64,000 nt of DNA from Escherichia phage PGN829.1. Below, one piece after another: positions 10,306-16,494 of the stretch. Within the stretch, counting starts at the first letter, position 1. Every line of letters starts with the position of its first letter. Where the stretch lies: the sequence record NC_070871.1, one strand, 5' to 3'. The notes beneath the pieces are model-generated. The model did no database searches. It was not told the DNA's origin and saw only the letters and a list, made by a program, of their open reading frames with translations. Made by a program: the position numbers and the translations under genes.

Positions 10306-10689
10306 TTAGAAAGTCAGTTTACGAGCATATTTATTCTCGTCTGCTGGGATGTCAGCAGCCTCTGCTTTCACACGACGAAGTTGAACTTGCAGGTTAATGA
10401 TACCTTCTTCACCTGGTTCCAGGTTCTGAGCATATTCGATTAACTGTTCCAGCAAGTCGTTCTGTGCACAACGCATAGCACGGAAGTCAGCATTGCTGCT
10501 ATTAGTAGGCAGTGGTTCCTGAGTATCCAGCGGAATACCAGTAGGCAATGAGATGAATTTCTCATCATCAGAGCCTTCATTAGCTACATAACCAATGTTC
10601 AGCCAGAACTGAGCTTTAGGCTTATCAGCCTTAGCAGTAGAAGTAGCAGCAGCGTTAGATTGACCGAAAGTGAATTTTTGAATAGACAT
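10306..10689 (-). CDS. hypothetical protein
   Basis: Start moved to ATG at 10689 (MSIQKF) with GGAGAG RBS; the longer track ORF would swallow the promoter hairpin region. Confidence 0.4.
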
Positions 10690-10792
10690 TTTGTACTCTC
10701 CAGATTTATGTGATTTACGGGTGAACTCGTCGGTGAGAACACCCAAACAAAAGGATAAAAGTTCAATGATTAGTGGATGCATTTACATCATC

Positions 10793-11109: not shown

Positions 11110-11433
11110 TTAGTCTTTAGTCAGGATGTCAATTACTTTGGAATATTCTGCGTTATAGATACGAGCGTTCTCTGAATCCTTGCAGAATTCTTCAATACTT
11201 TTCTTACGCAGAGTCTCAGTCATAGCTGTTTCCTCTGCCAGTTTATTAACAAAGGTATGCATTTCTAATTTAGTACGAATGGCTTGTTTCTCTGCCATAG
11301 TACTTACATATGAATTAAGCATACCTACTGCTTTAGTTGCTGTACCGAATGTATCTGCAACAGTAGTAGCAGCTGAGTTAACAGTACCAAGTAAAGTTCC
11401 TGCGGTCATACGTACAGTAGCGGTAGTAGTCAT
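11110..11433 (-). CDS. hypothetical protein (first gene after P-a)
   Basis: GGAG RBS; about 40 nt downstream of predicted P-a start. Confidence 0.4.
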   Translation of the reverse strand: MTTTATVRMTAGTLLGTVNSAATTVADTFGTATKAVGMLNSYVSTMAEKQAIRTKLEMHTFVNKLAEETAMTETLRKKSIEEFCKDSENARIYNAEYSKVIDILTKD

Positions 11434-11471
11434 GATGATAGCTCCAATAGTTGATGATAGGACGACATGTC

Positions 11472-11490
11472 CATAACATGCGGAGCATGT
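11472..11490 (-). promoter_or_regulatory. candidate N4-type virion-RNAP hairpin promoter (P-a)
   Basis: Template strand CCATA-ACATGC-GGA-GCATGT: 6-bp stem, GGA loop, G at -8, template C at predicted +1 (11472); shares CCATA flank with P-b. Confidence 0.5.
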
Positions 11491-11634
11491 GTAACGTGTA
11501 AGGTGGGGTAGGGTAGTGGCTACACCGTCAACATACCGGGGGGGCTAGTTGAGTGTAAGGGTGTAGCCCCAGCCACAACACTGCTGCTGTACATAGTTAT
11601 GACCAAAATGGTATGCAAAAATATGATAGCTATC

Positions 11635-11973
11635 CTACTTATAAGCAGTTAAATAGGAGGGAGCTTTGTTTATGAAACGTATAGTCCTGAATGAGTTACC
11701 TTCCCTCACCACACTGGCTCTTATTTTTACGGGTAAGAAGATGTGGAAGTAGTCTCCTTCCGGAGCAAGGTAACAATCATGTTCGTTGAGGATAACTATC
11801 TCAGCATTACTGTTATTAAGCAGTTTATGCCCTTGGGCAAAGTTTGCTAACTCTCCAGGTTCCATTATTAGAGTAGGATTACCATAGGGCATAACGTGGA
11901 TGATTGCTTTCTCTGGTTCAGAGGAATAGTGCAGTAAGTCTGTACCATTCATGCCTAAGAGCTTAACGTTCAT
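11635..11973 (-). CDS. small-protein paralog family member (degenerate)
   Basis: Shares the block hhhxPxxE..x.G.hhL......hxhLxE with five neighbours. Confidence 0.4.
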   Translation of the reverse strand: MNVKLLGMNGTDLLHYSSEPEKAIIHVMPYGNPTLIMEPGELANFAQGHKLLNNSNAEIVILNEHDCYLAPEGDYFHIFLPVKIRASVVREGNSFRTIRFINKAPSYLTAYK

Positions 11974-12277
11974 GCTTTAATACCTGTTCAAGAATGCTAT
12001 CCATGTAATAACAGTATGCTTCACTGTTACTACTGTTTACAGGCATACCAATGTAATCAAATACCCATAAGCAGAAGTGGTTTACTTCATGGATAAGTGT
12101 CGGTAAGGGTTCTGAAAAGATACCCATAAGAACCTTATTGCCGGAGTAAGAAGTGAAACCCTTACAACCTTCTATGTCTGGTTCGTACCCTTTGAGCTTC
12201 TTGTACTTTTTTCGGAAGACTTCTCTGTCATTAACTATCTCCAGTTGTACTGGGTATGGGGATGTGTTTATTTTCAT
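11963..12277 (-). CDS. small protein with HExxH motif (possible minimal zinc metallopeptidase or divergent paralog)
   Basis: LIHEVNHFCLWVF contains HEVNH; sits inside the paralog array. Confidence 0.35.
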   Translation of the reverse strand: MKINTSPYPVQLEIVNDREVFRKKYKKLKGYEPDIEGCKGFTSYSGNKVLMGIFSEPLPTLIHEVNHFCLWVFDYIGMPVNSSNSEAYCYYMDSILEQVLKHER

Positions 12278-12558
12278 TGTCTTTCCTTATATACAGGGGT
12301 GTCATCCTCGAAGGATAGGATGTACTTATCTGTATTGAGGTGCCAAGGACTAAAGCTACCTTGCCAGGACATTGGTGTTCCTGGTTCTAGTAAATGTACT
12401 ACTGAATTCTTATTGCATAAGAAAAGTAATCCTTGTAGTTCATGCAAGGACTGTTCGTCTGGAACCAGGATAAGTACATCAGCATCTAGGTTATCTACAT
12501 CTTTATGGAGAATGTAATCCTCCCCATTAGGTTCTGGATAAACTTTACTGATAACCAT
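12274..12558 (-). CDS. small-protein paralog family member
   Basis: VLILVPDEQSLHELQGLLFLCNKNSVVHLLEP. Confidence 0.45.
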   Translation of the reverse strand: MVISKVYPEPNGEDYILHKDVDNLDADVLILVPDEQSLHELQGLLFLCNKNSVVHLLEPGTPMSWQGSFSPWHLNTDKYILSFEDDTPVYKERQ

Positions 12559-12878
12559 TAGAGGCTCTCGTCGCTAGATAAATATGAGGTAGAAGGGTAG
12601 AGGGTAATAAGTCTACCGGTTAGGGTAGTTACTACCATAGGCTCATTCACAGATAGTATGTACACACTAGTGTGTTCTGGTACTTCCACGGAATCTTCTA
12701 TCTTAATAAATTTGATAGGCTGCCCCAACATTAAGCAAGTACCAATGAACACTTCTGCTTCTTCACTTGGCTCATATAGGATGGTGGTAACTCTCTCCCT
12801 ACCTGCCAGGATATTATCCAGCGTATATGGGGATAGATAGCAAGTAGTGGCAAAGCTAATAAGGCAGTACGGGTGCAT
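12558..12878 (-). CDS. small-protein paralog family member (divergent)
   Basis: TTILYEPSEEAEVFIGTCLMLGQPIKFIKIED aligns to the family block. Confidence 0.4.
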   Translation of the reverse strand: MHPYCLISFATTCYLSPYTLDNILAGRERVTTILYEPSEEAEVFIGTCLMLGQPIKFIKIEDSVEVPEHTSVYILSVNEPMVVTTLTGRLITLYPSTSYLSSDESL

Positions 12879-12881
12879 AAC

Positions 12882-13196
12882 TTATTTCCTTACATAGTAG
12901 TAACGGTATTCCTCATTCTCATAATGACTATCCCACTGGTACTCATCAGATACCATCATGAATGGTAGAGCATCATGAGCACTACTAACAGCGTATACTG
13001 ATGGAGGAATGATACATATAACCTTACGGTCACTACCTGCTAAGAATAACTGACCTCTTGCTTCATGGTAGTCCTCTAGAGTAGGAACCAGGATTACACG
13101 TTGTGAGCTACTGTTCATGACTTCTTCTAAAGTGAAGTCATTTGTATACAAAGATTCCCTTTCAGCATAACTGGGGACGGTCATTATGAATTTCAT
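12882..13196 (-). CDS. small-protein paralog family member
   Basis: VILVPTLEDYHEARGQLFLAGSDRKVICIIPP; start moved to internal Met to match family length (track ORF extends to 13259). Confidence 0.4.
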   Translation of the reverse strand: MKFIMTVPSYAERESLYTNDFTLEEVMNSSSQRVILVPTLEDYHEARGQLFLAGSDRKVICIIPPSVYAVSSAHDALPFMMVSDEYQWDSHYENEEYRYYYVRK

Positions 13197-13560
13197 GATT
13201 GATTTTCCTTCCTTTGGGGATAGGTCTGAAGTAAATGGAAAGTGTTTTATTAAAGACATTATGGTCAGCTATCAATTCCCAACCAGGTATTTTATAGAAC
13301 CTAACACCAGGGAAAATCATACTAAAGTCGCTGTAAAAGGAGAGGTCATACACCTTTGGTTCAGTGAGTATCTTAGTATTGAGTTTCAAGTTGGATAAGA
13401 AAAGAGAACCAATAACTTCGTGGGACTCTTCACAATCAGGAAAGAATACTGATTGCCACGGGGTAATGAACTTACTTACTATCTCTGGTTCCCCAAGGTA
13501 GTAAGGTTCTTGATTACGAAGTATTCCAGTAATATCAATATCAAAAGCGTAGATGCTCAT
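13162..13560 (-). CDS. small-protein paralog family member
   Basis: FFPDCEESHEVIGSLFLSNLKLNTKILTEP; GGAGG RBS. Confidence 0.45.
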   Translation of the reverse strand: MSIYAFDIDITGILRNQEPYYLGEPEIVSKFITPWQSVFFPDCEESHEVIGSLFLSNLKLNTKILTEPKVYDLSFYSDFSMIFPGVRFYKIPGWELIADHNVFNKTLSIYFRPIPKGRKINHEIHNDRPQLC

Positions 13561-13575
13561 AATTGCATACCTCCT

Positions 13576-13612
13576 GAAAAAGAAATGGGGTAGAGCCTCT
13601 CGACTCTACCCC
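13576..13612 (-). terminator. hairpin / possible terminator or attenuator
   Basis: 9-bp stem ggggtagag/ctctacccc; minus strand then reads AUUUCUUUUUC immediately before the next RBS. Confidence 0.4.
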
Positions 13613-13760
13613 TTACCGTTTTCAATCACGGGTCAGTTCATCACCCTAGATACATGTGTATCGTTAGCCTACTAGGTAGGAAAGGAGCCGGGTAACCCTG
13701 ACTGTAGAAGTTATTAACTCTTTACGAGTACCGCCACTATCTACTAGGCGGCATGACTAA

Positions 13761-14051
13761 TCACATCGTCACCATCATCCGAACACTGTCTTTTTCTCGT
13801 CTGACGGAGACACTATGAGGTAATTTTGTGAAGAACACAAGAGATGGAATAGACTTTTCTAAAGAGTAAGTTTCTCTTGGTTCTAAGATCTTAATGCCTG
13901 GACGATTTTCTAACAGCATCATCCCAGCTAATTCGTGGTAAGTATCCTCATCGTGGGTAATGATGATATCACCTGATAGAAAGCCAACCTTGGTGTGGTC
14001 TAGCTCAGAGTATTTATCTTCAGAGTCTTGGACTCTCATATAGATTCTCAA
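13761..14051 (-). CDS. small-protein paralog family member
   Basis: IIITHDEDTYHELAGMMLLENRPGIKILEP. Confidence 0.45.
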   Translation of the reverse strand: MRIYMRVQDSEDKYSELDHTKVGFLSGDIIITHDEDTYHELAGMMLLENRPGIKILEPRETYSLEKSIPSLVFFTKLPHSVSVRREKDSVRMMVTM

Positions 14052-14222
14052 AGGTTACTCCTTTTGGGAATAGGGTCATCGGAACATTACATACTATTTA
14101 GTATCATGAACTTTTTCTATATCATGACTAAAGTGTAACTGTATGGTATCGTTTCTTCAAGGGGTATCTCACCCCAAGAAAAGAATCTTCTTTAATAGAC
14201 ATAACTTTGTAGCGAGATAAGT

Positions 14223-14912
14223 ATGAGTGAACTAACTAAGCAGCAGATTGTTAATGCCCTACCTGCTAACTTCAAAAACAGTGTAACCCAGGAGTTGGTG
14301 GACACAATTAACAACATTACCCAAGACCAACTGGTTGCTGAAGCATTCCGTGAAAACTTCATCTCTTACTCTGGAGTTATGAAGGAAGGTAAGTTTAAGA
14401 CACAGGACTACATGAATGCAGTTCAGTATGTGACTTATAAACACATGGGCTACTCAAACAAGGAAGCCTACTTCAAGACATTCCCTAACCGACAAGCAGA
14501 ACTTGTAGCAAGGGGAACCAGTGAGAAAGACATTAGTGCTTACGTGTCTGCTTACCACAGAGGCAAGCTAGTTAACCTCATCATGGAACAAAGTTTGGTT
14601 CCAGTGTGGATTGTGAACCAGGATAATTATCAGAAAGCAATCAACGTTCAGGTTGAACTAATGACCACAGCAGCCAGTGAGAAGGTAAGATGTGATGCAG
14701 CTAACTCTATCCTTACCCACTTGGCTAAACCAAAAGACCAGGTAACAAATATCAATCTGGACTTAAGAGAAAACTCTGGGTTGACTGACCTCAAGGCAAC
14801 ACTTGCTGCATTAGCTGAACAGCAAATTAATGCAATCAATAGTGGTGTACCTACCAAGGAGATTGCTGGTTCTAAACTAGTACGTGCAAATGAGGACATT
14901 ACAGATGTCTGA
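14223..14912 (+). CDS. putative terminase small subunit (N4 gp69-position protein)
   Basis: First gene of late operon, directly upstream of and overlapping terminase large subunit; function inferred from position only. Confidence 0.3.
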   Translation: MSELTKQQIVNALPANFKNSVTQELVDTINNITQDQLVAEAFRENFISYSGVMKEGKFKTQDYMNAVQYVTYKHMGYSNKEAYFKTFPNRQAELVARGTSEKDISAYVSAYHRGKLVNLIMEQSLVPVWIVNQDNYQKAINVQVELMTTAASEKVRCDAANSILTHLAKPKDQVTNINLDLRENSGLTDLKATLAALAEQQINAINSGVPTKEIAGSKLVRANEDITDV

Positions 14913-16494
14913 GTTAATTAAACAGGAACTAGATGAATGGCTGGACCAGGTGGATTACTCCTACCTTAATTCATCTAACTATGTTCCTAGTCAGTTTGCT
15001 CTTACCTTTGCCAACTTTATTAAGTTGGTTAATGGTAAGGAAGGTGAATCCAACAAAACACCTCCAGTTCACTTGAAGATGTTGGATAAGATGATTAGTC
15101 CGAACCAGTATGTAGTTAACCTGTGCTTCCGTGGTGCAGGTAAGACTGCTGTGTTCATGGAATACTTTACTTTATTCCTGGCAGTGTTTGGTCACTTGCC
15201 CAGTCTGGGTAAAGTTGAAGGGATGATTTACGTATCCGACTCAATGGATAACGGTGCTAAATCTGCACGTAAGAATATTGAGTTCCGATATAAAAACAGT
15301 GAGTTCCTTCAGCAATGGATACCTGAAGCTACCTTTACGGATAACCTGTTAGAGTTTCGTAATGTAGAAGGGCATCGGCTTGGCGTTAAGCTGTTTGGTG
15401 CTAAGACAGGTCTTCGTGGTACGAAGATATATGGTAAACGTCCAACACTCTGTGTATTGGATGACTTGATTAGTGATGGTGATGCTAACTCCAAGACAAG
15501 CATGGAAGCTATCAAGGATACCGTCTATAAAGGTGTGAACCACGCCCTTGACCCAACCCGTCGTAAAGTAATTTTCAATGGTACTCCCTTTAATAAGGAA
15601 GACATTATCATTGAAGCAGTTGAGTCTGGTGCATGGGATGTCAACGTATGGCCTGTATGCGAGAAGTTCCCCTGTAGCAGGGAAGAATTTCAGGGTGCAT
15701 GGGATGACCGTTTCTCATATGACTACATCAAAGCTCAATACGATATGGCAGTTAAGACGGGTAAGCTGGCAGGCTTCTATCAGGAACTTATGCTTCGTAT
15801 TAGCTCTGAAGATGAGAGACTGGTTCAGGATAGTGAAATTAGATGGTATAGCAGACAGCAACTGTTAAGGATGAAGTCCTGCTACAACTATTATATTACA
15901 ACCGACTTTGCTACTTCGGAGAAACAGACCAGTGACTACAGTGTCATTTCAGTTTGGGCTTATAGTTCTAATGGAGATTGGTTCTGGGTTGATGGTGTGG
16001 CTAATCGTCAGCTTATGGATAAAAACTTTGATGACCTGTTCCGTCTGGTTCAGGAATACCAACCACAAAACGTTGGTGTCGAAGTTACAGGTCAGCAGGG
16101 TGGATTCATTTCACTCCTTCAGAAAGAAATGATTAACCGTAATGTCTTCTTTAATTTTGCATCCTCTGAGGGTGGTAAGCCAGGCATACGTCCTGTAACC
16201 TCTAAGCTGTCACGCTTTAACCTGGTAGTTCCATGGTTCAAAGCTGGTAAGATGTACTTCCCAGAAGAGTTGAGAGATTCAACTATTATGGGTCTGTTCA
16301 TGGGCCAGATTAAACTAGCTACCATTAATGGAATCAAAGGTAAGGATGACTGTATTGATACTATCTCCATGCTGGGTTATCTCAATCCCTGGAAACCACA
16401 AGCAGGTATGACCATGGTGGATAACAAAGGTGACCCAATGTGGGATGATGAAGAAGAAGATAGTGTTAACCCACTACGTTCATACATTGTGTGA
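14884..16494 (+). CDS. terminase large subunit
   Basis: Walker A-like RGAGKT, Walker B-like LCVLDD, 536 aa with C-terminal nuclease-like region. Confidence 0.8.
   Translation: MQMRTLQMSELIKQELDEWLDQVDYSYLNSSNYVPSQFALTFANFIKLVNGKEGESNKTPPVHLKMLDKMISPNQYVVNLCFRGAGKTAVFMEYFTLFLAVFGHLPSLGKVEGMIYVSDSMDNGAKSARKNIEFRYKNSEFLQQWIPEATFTDNLLEFRNVEGHRLGVKLFGAKTGLRGTKIYGKRPTLCVLDDLISDGDANSKTSMEAIKDTVYKGVNHALDPTRRKVIFNGTPFNKEDIIIEAVESGAWDVNVWPVCEKFPCSREEFQGAWDDRFSYDYIKAQYDMAVKTGKLAGFYQELMLRISSEDERLVQDSEIRWYSRQQLLRMKSCYNYYITTDFATSEKQTSDYSVISVWAYSSNGDWFWVDGVANRQLMDKNFDDLFRLVQEYQPQNVGVEVTGQQGGFISLLQKEMINRNVFFNFASSEGGKPGIRPVTSKLSRFNLVVPWFKAGKMYFPEELRDSTIMGLFMGQIKLATINGIKGKDDCIDTISMLGYLNPWKPQAGMTMVDNKGDPMWDDEEEDSVNPLRSYIV

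What the first reader, a model, noticed from the sequence alone, without database searches (positions are those of the whole stretch)
11635..14051. Tandem array of six or seven diverged small paralogs next to the first early promoter
Six consecutive minus-strand ORFs (13761-14051, 13162-13560, 12882-13196, 12558-12878, 12274-12558, 11635-11973) share an alignable block: hydrophobic run, P, acidic residue, then HE(L/V/A)xG, two hydrophobics, L, about 8 residues, then (I/V)xh(L/I)xEP. Examples are DTYHELAGMMLLENRPGIKILEP, QSLHELQGLLFLCNKNSVVHLLEP, EDYHEARGQLFLAGSDRKVICIIPP and EESHEVIGSLFLSNLKLNTKILTEP; elsewhere they are highly diverged. Serial duplication with rapid divergence is typical of host-interaction or anti-defense loci. 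I do not recognise the family.
Basis: seen in the sequence. Interest (0 to 1): 0.7.

Follow-up and report, generated by a model that had tools for sequence, protein, structure and literature searches.

The report
Phage right-end paralog array with hidden RNA
Six of the seven small genes at the right end of this N4-like coliphage genome are diverged copies of one phage-specific protein fold (the N4 gp70/gp71 family, function unknown), and a strongly conserved, unannotated structured RNA with a terminator sits between the first copy and the rest.

Summary
The window is a Gamaleyavirus (a G7C/U1G-like relative of phage N4). The six minus-strand ORFs exist at the stated coordinates.

- **A, B, C and E** are demonstrably homologous (hhalign P from 2e-7 to 3e-4). 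The motif HE[LVA]xGxhhL occurs four times in the six-frame translation of the 64 kb, only in these ORFs.
- **D and F** are remote members. They join in iterative HMM searches, with profile-profile P of about 6e-4. An independent AlphaFold model of D matches the same Schitoviridae-only fold set as the model of E.
- **The seventh ORF, X (11963-12277)**, carries an HExxH motif and is unrelated.

The placement in the title is misleading. A and B are the homologs of N4 gp70 and gp71, so the array lies at the right end of the genome, just inside the terminal repeat. The first early hairpin promoter (11489-11477) lies downstream of the array and beyond the physical genome end (about 11576). It does not drive these genes.

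The family is confined to N4-like phages, with 2-6 copies per genome. It is under purifying but relaxed selection (dN/dS 0.17-0.34) and has no known relatives, so its function is unknown. A role as accessory binding proteins is my best inference.

Unexpectedly, the A-B "spacer" (13575-13760) is a covariation-supported structured RNA. It ends in a terminator that abuts B's ribosome-binding site and is conserved across two Schitoviridae subfamilies.

The parts
14132..14160 (-). Candidate sigma-70-like promoter for A: TTGAAG (14160-14155), 17-nt spacer, TACACT (14137-14132). A conserved hairpin GGGGT-GAGAT-ACCCC (14175-14161) precedes it.
   Evidence: Read from the sequence. N4 has TTGCAG-17-TAGACT at the same place, and the intergenic region is 95% identical among Gamaleyaviruses. 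It scores only 8/12 to consensus and was not listed by the scan. Its function is inferred.
13761..14051 (-). Paralog A, 96 aa, TTG start. Ortholog of N4 gp70 (phrog_7213).
   Evidence: BLASTP to N4 gp70 8e-23; PhAPEC5 annotation; hhalign A-E P 2e-7; dN/dS 0.25.
13575..13760 (-). Conserved structured RNA candidate of about 185 nt. It comprises a P1 hairpin, single-stranded UAAUAAC, a long-range helix enclosing single-stranded CUCCUUU plus two hairpins, a further hairpin, and an intrinsic terminator (stem 13612-13587, T-run to about 13577) immediately 5' of B's ribosome-binding site.
   Evidence: 92.7-99.5% nucleotide identity in 54 Gamaleyavirus records. RNAalifold structure. Covariance model R1 finds it full-length after the gp70 homolog in N4, KP8, JZBo1, BaqKoxi, JWAlpha, inbricus and Axy10 (31.9-47 bits). 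98.2% of cells are paired and 32 of 44 pairs show double changes, against 18.2 in shuffles and 3-9 in slid controls. Terminator scan. No Rfam, tRNA or tmRNA match.
13162..13560 (-). Paralog B, 132 aa. Ortholog of N4 gp71 (phrog_9160).
   Evidence: BLASTP to N4 gp71 3.8e-5; hhalign B-C P 4e-5 and B-E 3e-4; dN/dS 0.19.
12882..13196 (-). Paralog C, 104 aa (phrog_11661). It overlaps the 3' end of B by 35 nt.
   Evidence: hhalign C-E P 9e-7. The BFVD C-type model from EC1-UPM matches the E model at TM 0.76.
12558..12878 (-). Paralog D, 106 aa (phrog_12099; G7C gp71.2). A remote member that lacks the His-Glu of the motif.
   Evidence: Iterative HMM. Superfamily versus D P 7e-4, in motif register. 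AlphaFold model pLDDT 88 with the same beta-alpha-beta core. Foldseek hits to gp71-type, C-type, E-type and F-like proteins. The E model hits a D ortholog at probability 0.91 (rank 16).
12274..12558 (-). Paralog E, 94 aa (phrog_16338). The central member, linked to A, B and C.
   Evidence: AlphaFold model pLDDT 80, pTM 0.68.
11963..12277 (-). X, 104 aa, with an HEVNH (HExxH) motif (phrog_1365). An unrelated gene embedded in the array, not a family member.
   Evidence: No cross-hit. It never enters the iterative HMM. No Pfam, NCBIfam or PDB match.
11635..11973 (-). Paralog F, 112 aa (phrog_12606). A remote member that lacks the His.
   Evidence: It enters the iterative HMM through the IME11 F-like paralog L008:2761-3111 (E 3e-4). 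Superfamily versus F P 5e-4. Its C-terminal APSYLTAYK is shared with the E-like Moonfish paralog (APSYLAAYK) and N4 gp71 (IPAYK). The BFVD model of the F-like IME11 protein K4MQ72 matches the D model at 1.6e-4, TM 0.62. F itself was not modelled.
11176..11576 (-). Terminal-repeat region and physical genome end (left end at about 11576). It contains early hairpin promoter P1 (CATGC-TCC-GCATG, 11489-11477) and the 5' two-thirds of the gp1-like gene. It is not part of the array and marks the array's boundary.
   Evidence: Alignment to N4 nucleotides 1-150. IME11 termini and 401-bp repeat measured by sequencing (PMC3896407). The U1G record ends here. Hairpin scan.

Best explanation
SHOWN
- The locus is the right-end module of an N4-type genome. 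From the gp69/terminase divergent intergenic region it runs: gp70-like gene A, a conserved structured RNA ending in an intrinsic terminator, then B, C, D, E, X and F up to the terminal repeat.
- A to F, but not X, belong to one Schitoviridae-restricted family of small (about 90-135 aa), soluble, mildly acidic alpha/beta proteins. The family has been amplified by tandem duplication to 2 copies in N4 and 4-6 in the G7C-like, KP8-like and Moo19 phages.
- The conserved block is a strand / P-D/E loop / helix (HExxG..L) / strand-EP unit. Only the helix Gly is invariant.

INFERRED
- The proteins are non-enzymatic binding modules. Each paralog is tuned to a different host or competitor target, giving accessory, host-range or counter-defence functions.
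- They are expressed from a host-type promoter upstream of A once the right end of the genome has entered the cell.
- Expression of B-F depends on read-through of the terminator that closes the RNA. The RNA therefore either gates the array in cis (as an attenuator or antiterminator-like leader) or is itself a stable small RNA derived from the 3' UTR of A.
For: - **Family and duplication:**. Fold agreement between independent models.
- **Restriction to N4-like phages:** The top Foldseek hits are all Schitoviridae. Only 22 clusters match among 1.84 billion representative proteins. A diverse-member profile gives 48 hits, and those with long contigs sit on contigs of about 70-74 kb.
- **Variable copy number and content between close relatives:**
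- **Real genes evolving faster than neighbours:** dN/dS is 0.17-0.34, against 0.02 for gp69 and 0.08 for gp1. Nucleotide identity is 0.51-0.84, against 0.92-0.96 for the flanks.
- **No conserved catalytic residues:**
- **No early promoter upstream:**
- **Conserved promoter-like element and RNA/terminator architecture across seven genera:**
- **Published context:** the KP8 authors already note a rightward group of short ORFs of unknown function and variable number at the 3' end of N4-like genomes (PMC6950046).
Against: - dN/dS is below 1, so there is no signature of an arms race at the whole-gene level.
- From established knowledge of N4 DNA entry, the right end of the genome enters the cell last. 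That is late for a classical anti-restriction role.
- A conserved His-Glu in four members could point to an enzyme or a ligand binder.
- The promoter matches consensus only 8/12. No transcript data were found for E. coli N4-like phages.
- Gating by the RNA is inferred from position alone. No alternative antiterminator pairing was tested.
Confidence: 0.45

Rival explanations
1. Only A, B, C and E are true paralogs. D and F are unrelated small alpha/beta proteins that fit the pattern by chance or convergence.
For: There are no pairwise BLAST or PHROG cross-hits for D or F. hhalign probabilities are only 26-31%. D and F lack the His-Glu. The library-wide profile search did not reach D or F types at E <= 1e-3. 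F itself was not modelled.
Against: All D and F orthologs rank directly below the members and above 600 other ORFs. The iterative search converges without drift. The alignments fall in the motif register. D's independent model hits gp71-, C-, E- and F-like models at probability 1.0. F shares its C-terminal tail with an E-like paralog.
Confidence: 0.12
2. The family serves the phage's own DNA transactions at the genome end, such as replication initiation at the right end, terminus recognition or a packaging accessory role, rather than host interaction.
For: The position is fixed next to the terminase genes and just inside the right terminal repeat in seven genera. gp70 is conserved across two subfamilies. 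A published statement holds that N4 replication starts preferentially at the right end (quoted in PMC3896407).
Against: Copy number and content vary between near-identical phages, which is unusual for core DNA-metabolism factors. The proteins are acidic with no DNA-binding features. The distance to the genome end ranges from about 0.7 kb in N4 to about 2.4 kb here. LUZ7 lacks the RNA and carries 29 much shorter small ORFs at the same position; those ORFs were not tested against the family profile.
Confidence: 0.13
3. The members are small enzymes or ligand 'sponges' that use the conserved Asp/Glu-His-Glu-Asn cluster at the strand-helix junction, for example to bind or cleave a nucleotide signal.
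For: P-D-E...H-E..G...N is nearly invariant within the A/B/C/E types. In the model it maps to the C-terminal ends of the strands and the N-terminus of the helix, a usual ligand site in alpha/beta folds (general knowledge).
Confidence: 0.15
4. One reading: early anti-defence genes driven by the first early (virion RNA polymerase) promoter.
For: P1 lies 146 nt from F's stop codon in this permuted window. Small, diversified genes are typical of anti-defence loci.
Against: P1 is downstream of the array, points away from it, and lies beyond the physical genome end. No hairpin promoter lies between 11635 and 14222. A and B are N4 gp70 and gp71, which are right-end genes.
Confidence: 0.05

Closest known systems
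Phage N4 gp70 and gp71 (right-end ORFs of unknown function); G7C gp70, gp71 and gp71.x
   Same: A is orthologous to gp70 (BLASTP 8e-23) and B to gp71 (3.8e-5). They have the same position after gp69 and the same gp70 / spacer / terminator / gp71 layout.
   Different: N4 has two members and this phage has six. To my knowledge, gp70 and gp71 had not been recognised as paralogs of each other or of the G7C-specific genes. PHROGs splits them into six families.
Tandemly duplicated, fast-evolving small accessory genes of lytic phages (anti-defence or host-takeover loci)
   Same: Small size, tandem paralogy, variable copy number, elevated divergence and no housekeeping homologs.
   Different: The genes sit at the last-entering genome end with no early promoter. 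dN/dS is below 1. There is no similarity to any characterised inhibitor. The resemblance is by analogy only.
Right-end small-ORF cluster of other Schitoviridae, for example the ten rightward ORFs of KP8 and LUZ7 ORF87-115
   Same: Same genomic position and orientation. KP8, BaqKoxi and JZBo1 carry 4-5 members of this same family.
   Different: The 29 ORFs of LUZ7 are about 40-75 aa, and LUZ7 lacks the RNA. Their relation to this family was not tested.
Intra-operon or leader RNAs that control terminator read-through (HK022 put RNA, Bacillus EAR element, terminator-type riboswitches), and small RNAs derived from 3' UTRs
   Same: A conserved, covarying structured RNA lies inside an operon and ends in, or directly precedes, an intrinsic terminator that abuts the next gene's ribosome-binding site.
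   Different: There is no sequence or structure match to any Rfam family. No antiterminator alternative or ligand has been identified. It carries an exposed, invariant anti-Shine-Dalgarno-like CUCC(UU). The comparison rests on my own knowledge of those systems.

Membership tests
N4 gp70/gp71 family (PHROGs 7213, 9160, 11661, 16338, 12099, 12606) | Significant sequence similarity to N4 gp70 or gp71, or to another member | tested here: met
   A to gp70 8e-23 and B to gp71 3.8e-5. A-E, C-E, B-C and B-E by hhalign. D and F only through iterated profiles, P about 6e-4.
N4 gp70/gp71 family (PHROGs 7213, 9160, 11661, 16338, 12099, 12606) | Shared fold: beta-beta-beta-alpha-beta core followed by a C-terminal beta-meander | tested here: met
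   Models of E (pLDDT 80) and D (pLDDT 88, from an independent alignment) share the order of secondary-structure elements and the same BFVD hit set. A, B, C and F were not modelled here. BFVD models of C-type, gp71-type and F-like proteins match.
N4 gp70/gp71 family (PHROGs 7213, 9160, 11661, 16338, 12099, 12606) | Location between the gp69-like (small terminase) gene and the right terminal repeat, transcribed away from gp69 | tested here: met
N4 gp70/gp71 family (PHROGs 7213, 9160, 11661, 16338, 12099, 12606) | Motif hhhh-P-D/E-x3-H-E-h-x-G-x-h-h-L ... h-x-h-h-x-E-P | tested here: inconclusive
   The motif is complete in A, B, C and E. D and F keep the hydrophobic pattern and the Gly but not the His-Glu.
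Phage anti-defence proteins | Homology or fold match to a characterised inhibitor | tested here: not met
Phage anti-defence proteins | Early expression from an early promoter | tested here: not met
   No virion-RNA-polymerase hairpin promoter lies upstream of the array, which sits at the right genome end.
Phage anti-defence proteins | Demonstrated inhibition of a defence system | not testable with these tools
   Requires experiments.
Known RNA families (Rfam 15), tRNA and tmRNA | Covariance-model or ARAGORN match for 13575-13760 | tested here: not met
   No relevant Rfam hit at E <= 1. No tRNA or tmRNA.
Terminator-based cis-regulatory leader (attenuator, riboswitch or processive antiterminator) | Conserved structured domain followed by an intrinsic terminator directly upstream of the regulated gene | tested here: met
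   The same layout occurs in N4, KP8, JWAlpha (annotated terminator), inbricus and Axy10.
Terminator-based cis-regulatory leader (attenuator, riboswitch or processive antiterminator) | Mutually exclusive antiterminator pairing, or an effect on read-through | not tested
   No systematic search for a conserved alternative structure was made. Read-through needs transcript mapping.

The most novel reading that the evidence does not exclude
The conserved RNA between gp70 and the gp71-like genes is a new class of phage cis-acting regulatory RNA, either riboswitch-like or a processive antiterminator. It would sense a state of the infected cell and open the terminator to release a diversifying array of counter-defence or host-range proteins. 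The module would be shared by at least two subfamilies of Schitoviridae.
Probability: 0.15. Interest if true: 0.8.

Novelty: new variant of a known kind. Interest (0 to 1): 0.6.

Why it matters
N4-like phages are a major model for transcription and a widely used therapeutic group, yet their right-end genes are blank "hypothetical proteins".

- **One family instead of six.** Showing that gp70, gp71 and the G7C-specific genes are a single expanding family turns six orphan PHROGs into one target for functional work on host range, counter-defence or takeover.
- **A new RNA candidate.** The covarying RNA is conserved from coliphage N4 to Achromobacter and Pseudomonas phages, and is better conserved than any neighbouring gene. 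It is a concrete, testable candidate for a new phage regulatory RNA, and it explains the odd 200-250 nt "spacer" and terminator annotated in several genomes.
- **An annotation correction.** In permuted assemblies, adjacency to the early promoter is an artefact of where the genome ends are joined.

Tried and rejected
- **Protein family and structure libraries.** Pfam, PHROGs, NCBIfam, PADLOC and the PDB sequence search gave nothing beyond PHROGs of unknown function.
- **Homolog searches.**
  - The first search was saturated by E and B orthologs.
  - The exhaustive representative search found 22 clusters, and the ten weaker hits I read were C- and B-type variants. No D or F type was among them, so it did not settle D or F.
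- **Repeated promoter motif.** I searched for AGTTACACTTTAGTC elsewhere in the window to assign a polymerase class. The matches were at chance level.
- **IMG/VR scan with a degenerate RNA pattern.** Of 78 loci, only the Gamaleyavirus, N4 and inbricus types were confirmed by the covariance model. The rest were chance matches.
- **LUZ7 small RNAs.** I tested whether the small-RNA hotspot reported for LUZ7 (orf69-70) or the LUZ7 right end carries the RNA. It does not.
- **Literature.** Searches for N4 or G7C right-end transcription or function found nothing specific.
- **Anti-Shine-Dalgarno pairing.** I considered that the RNA's CUCCUU pairs with B's Shine-Dalgarno sequence. I did not pursue this, because any Shine-Dalgarno sequence is complementary to it.
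Full report
**Identity of the window.** The region 11000-14400 matches 59 phage records. The best are Gamaleyavirus members (G7C-like, N4-like Schitoviridae), with Escherichia phage U1G at 96.5%. On the plus strand, 14223-14912 is the N4 gp69-like gene and 14884-16494 is the large terminase.

**The ORFs.** The minus strand carries seven consecutive ORFs:
- A, 13761-14051
- B, 13162-13560
- C, 12882-13196
- D, 12558-12878
- E, 12274-12558
- X, 11963-12277
- F, 11635-11973

They are followed by a 200-nt gap and then the N4 gp1-like (11110-11433) and gp2-like (10306-10782) genes.

**Where the array really lies.** PhAPEC5 annotates the A and B orthologs as similar to N4 gp70 and gp71. BLASTP confirms this, with 8e-23 for A and 3.8e-5 for B. 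In N4 these are the rightward ORFs at the extreme right end of the genome.

N4 nucleotide 1 (tggtggggctacacc) aligns to the window at about 11576. Sequencing-based termini of the Gamaleyavirus IME11 place one end on the homologous GTGGCTGGGGCTACACC. They also define a 401-bp direct terminal repeat reaching into the gp1-like gene (PMC3896407). The U1G record ends at the same point.

A scan for N4-type hairpin promoters (NNNGC-TCC-GCNNN followed by TTATGG) finds exactly three, at 11489-11477, 10810-10798 and 6122-6110. All are on the minus strand and downstream of the array. They match the promoters tabulated for KP8 (PMC6950046).

The window is therefore a permuted assembly in which the right genome end (the array) is joined to the left end (P1, gp1). 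The array is adjacent to the first early promoter, but it lies upstream of that promoter and across the physical terminus.

**Are the six ORFs paralogs?** For A, B, C and E the evidence is direct.
- BLASTP links A-E, C-E, B-C and B-E.
- PHROG models cross-hit.
- Profile-profile comparison of eight-phage ortholog alignments gives P from 2e-7 to 3e-4. Four control families stay at P >= 0.03.
- The core motif HE[LVA]xGxhhL occurs four times in the six-frame translation of the 64 kb, only in these ORFs. The shuffle mean is 0.015.

D and F have no pairwise signal, but several results support them.
- Iteration admits both families and converges, first at 59 and then, with more genera, at 79 members. 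No unrelated ORF enters: not X, gp1, gp2 or any other ORF of the window.
- hhalign of the superfamily profile gives P 7e-4 against D and 5e-4 against F, with the alignments in the motif register. Controls give P >= 0.29.
- F's C-terminal APSYLTAYK recurs in an E-like paralog of phage Moonfish and, shortened, in N4 gp71.

**Structure.**
- AlphaFold on E, with an alignment of E and B orthologs plus A, B and C from the window, gives pLDDT 80 and pTM 0.68. The model has three strands, one helix (residues 35-47, which is the HELQG..FL block), a fourth strand, and a C-terminal three-strand meander.
- D was modelled from D orthologs only. It gives pLDDT 88 and pTM 0.78, with the same strand (32-35), helix (39-50), strand (56-59) core in the register predicted by hhalign.
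- In BFVD both models retrieve essentially the same list, made only of Schitoviridae proteins. The list includes E-type, C-type (EC1-UPM, TM 0.76 to E), gp71-type (OLB145), the F-like IME11 protein K4MQ72 (1.6e-4 to D), and proteins of KP8, of Achromobacter phages and of Pseudomonas phage Zuri. The E model hits a D ortholog at probability 0.91.

I conclude that A to F share a fold and an origin. D is supported by structure. F is supported by profiles and through its IME11 paralog. X is not related.

**Distribution and evolution.**
- gp70 homologs occur in Enquatrovirus, Gamaleyavirus, Kaypoctavirus, Moovirus, Jwalphavirus, Pourcelvirus and Inbricusvirus.
- Members per genome: 2 in N4; 4-5 in KP8, JZBo1 and BaqKoxi; 6 in Moo19; 4 in Jgk1; at least 2 in JWAlpha, inbricus and Axy10; and 5-6 in Gamaleyaviruses, whose content differs between isolates.
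- A profile search of 1.84 billion representative proteins finds only 22 clusters.
- A profile of diverse members finds 48 proteins. Those with long contigs sit on contigs of about 70-74 kb, and none has a Pfam domain.
- Orthologs show dN/dS of 0.17-0.34, against 0.024 for gp69 and 0.077 for gp1. They are also the least conserved DNA of the locus.
- These are therefore real genes under relaxed purifying selection with frequent allele replacement. They are not decaying copies.
- The proteins are soluble, with pI 4.4-6.5. Across genera only the helix Gly is invariant, which argues for a binding scaffold rather than a conserved catalytic centre.

**The A-B spacer is a structured RNA.**
- The 200 nt between A and B are 92.7-99.5% identical in all 54 full-length Gamaleyavirus matches. 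That is more conserved than any neighbouring gene.
- The spacer ends in a strong intrinsic terminator (13612-13587 plus a T-run) that abuts B's ribosome-binding site.
- Homologous spacers exist in N4, KP8, Moo19, Jgk1, JWAlpha and inbricus. They share invariant nucleotides in a P1 hairpin, a UAAUAAC stretch and a CUCC stretch.
- RNAalifold on seven sequences predicts the P1 hairpin, a long-range helix enclosing single-stranded CUCCUUU and two hairpins, a further hairpin, and the terminator. Single-sequence folds of the distant spacers give the same architecture with different helix sequences.
- A covariance model built only from the seven close sequences detects the element full-length, immediately after the gp70 homolog. 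Scores are 47 bits in inbricus, 42 in JZBo1, 36 in BaqKoxi, 36 in KP8, 33 in JWAlpha, 32 in N4 and 32 in Axy10. Its only other match in the window is a weak opposite-strand one over the terminator (21 bits, E about 5e-4).
- On the 14-sequence alignment, 98.2% of cells pair (shuffles 76.4 +/- 1.3). Thirty-two of 44 pairs carry double changes, against 18.2 in shuffles and 3-9 when partners are slid. The covariation score is 0.514, against 0.177 in shuffles and at most 0.067 when slid. The caveat is that the alignment was fitted to the model.
- G-U pairs, and the roughly 208-bit gap in score between the two strands, indicate that the array strand is the transcribed one.
- There is no Rfam, tRNA or tmRNA match. 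LUZ7, whose published small-RNA hotspot I checked, lacks the element.

**Expression model (inferred).**
- Upstream of A there is a conserved TTGAAG-17-TACACT, with TTGCAG-17-TAGACT in N4. It lies behind a conserved hairpin, in an intergenic region that is 95% conserved.
- No hairpin promoter precedes the array.
- The simplest reading is one transcription unit: A, then the RNA, then the terminator, with B-F expressed by read-through.
- The RNA could be a cis-acting gate, or a stable small RNA derived from the 3' UTR. I could not discriminate between these, and I found no transcript data for coliphage N4-like right ends.

**Function.** Nothing known resembles these proteins. Several features fit accessory proteins that bind variable host or competitor targets:
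- tandem expansion;
- strain-to-strain variability;
- relaxed constraint;
- absence of conserved catalytic residues;
- restriction to one phage family.

Two points speak against classical early anti-restriction: the right-end position (the last DNA to enter, by established N4 biology) and the absence of an early promoter. Counter-measures timed with late events, exclusion of competitors, or a role at the genome end remain open.

**Verdict.** The promoter context was misread because of the permuted assembly. The most notable result is a conserved structured RNA inside the reported interval.

Noticed in passing
window 13575-13760 (minus strand): The 'spacer' between paralogs A and B is a covariation-supported structured RNA of about 185 nt ending in an intrinsic terminator. 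It is conserved from N4 to Achromobacter and Pseudomonas N4-like phages and is absent from Rfam. It carries an exposed invariant CUCC(UU), which resembles an anti-Shine-Dalgarno sequence.
   Followed up: yes
L014:22-253 (Moo19) and L010:3798-4033 (KP8): In Moo19 and KP8 the RNA carries an extra inserted hairpin whose loop region contains ACCUCCUUA, identical to the 3' end of 16S rRNA.
   Followed up: no
window 14052-14222: The gp69/gp70 divergent intergenic region is 95% conserved. It has a conserved hairpin (14175-14161) and the promoter-like TTGAAG-17-TACACT. In N4, KP8, JWAlpha, inbricus and Axy10 the gp70 5' region shares TTAGACTTTAG and the hairpin GUCUCCUUAC-AAUA-GUAAGACAGAGAC. This suggests a conserved, structured 5' UTR.
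   Followed up: partly
window 11963-12277 (minus strand): Gene X inside the array is unrelated to the family and has an HEVNH (HExxH) metalloprotease-like motif (phrog_1365). It is conserved at this position in all Gamaleyaviruses and in Jgk1. It has no Pfam, NCBIfam or PDB match.
   Followed up: partly
window 11489-11477, 10810-10798, 6122-6110 (minus strand): Three N4-type virion-RNA-polymerase hairpin promoters (5-bp stem, TCC loop, then TTATGG or TTTTGG). P1 shows compensatory stem changes relative to N4 (GTTGC/GCAAC becomes CATGC/GCATG).
   Followed up: yes
window about 11176-11576: The physical genome end and the roughly 400-bp direct terminal repeat are collapsed inside the window. The sequence is therefore a permuted or circularised assembly joining the right and left genome ends.
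   Followed up: partly
whole window; proteins D and E: D and E are 100% identical to NCBI proteins labelled Enterococcus faecium (EI543_13490) on a 2.76-Mb contig. This points to an E. coli phage sequence sitting in an E. faecium assembly, probably through contamination or misassembly.
   Followed up: no
L097:2699-8346 (LUZ7 right end): At the equivalent position, Pseudomonas phage LUZ7 has 29 consecutive rightward ORFs of about 40-75 aa. This may be another expanded small-gene array. The RNA is not detected there.
   Followed up: partly
window 13162-13196: B and C overlap by 35 nt. A longer in-frame start for C (13259) exists but is not used in most annotations. D/E and E/X overlap by 1-4 nt, which suggests translational coupling.
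   Followed up: no
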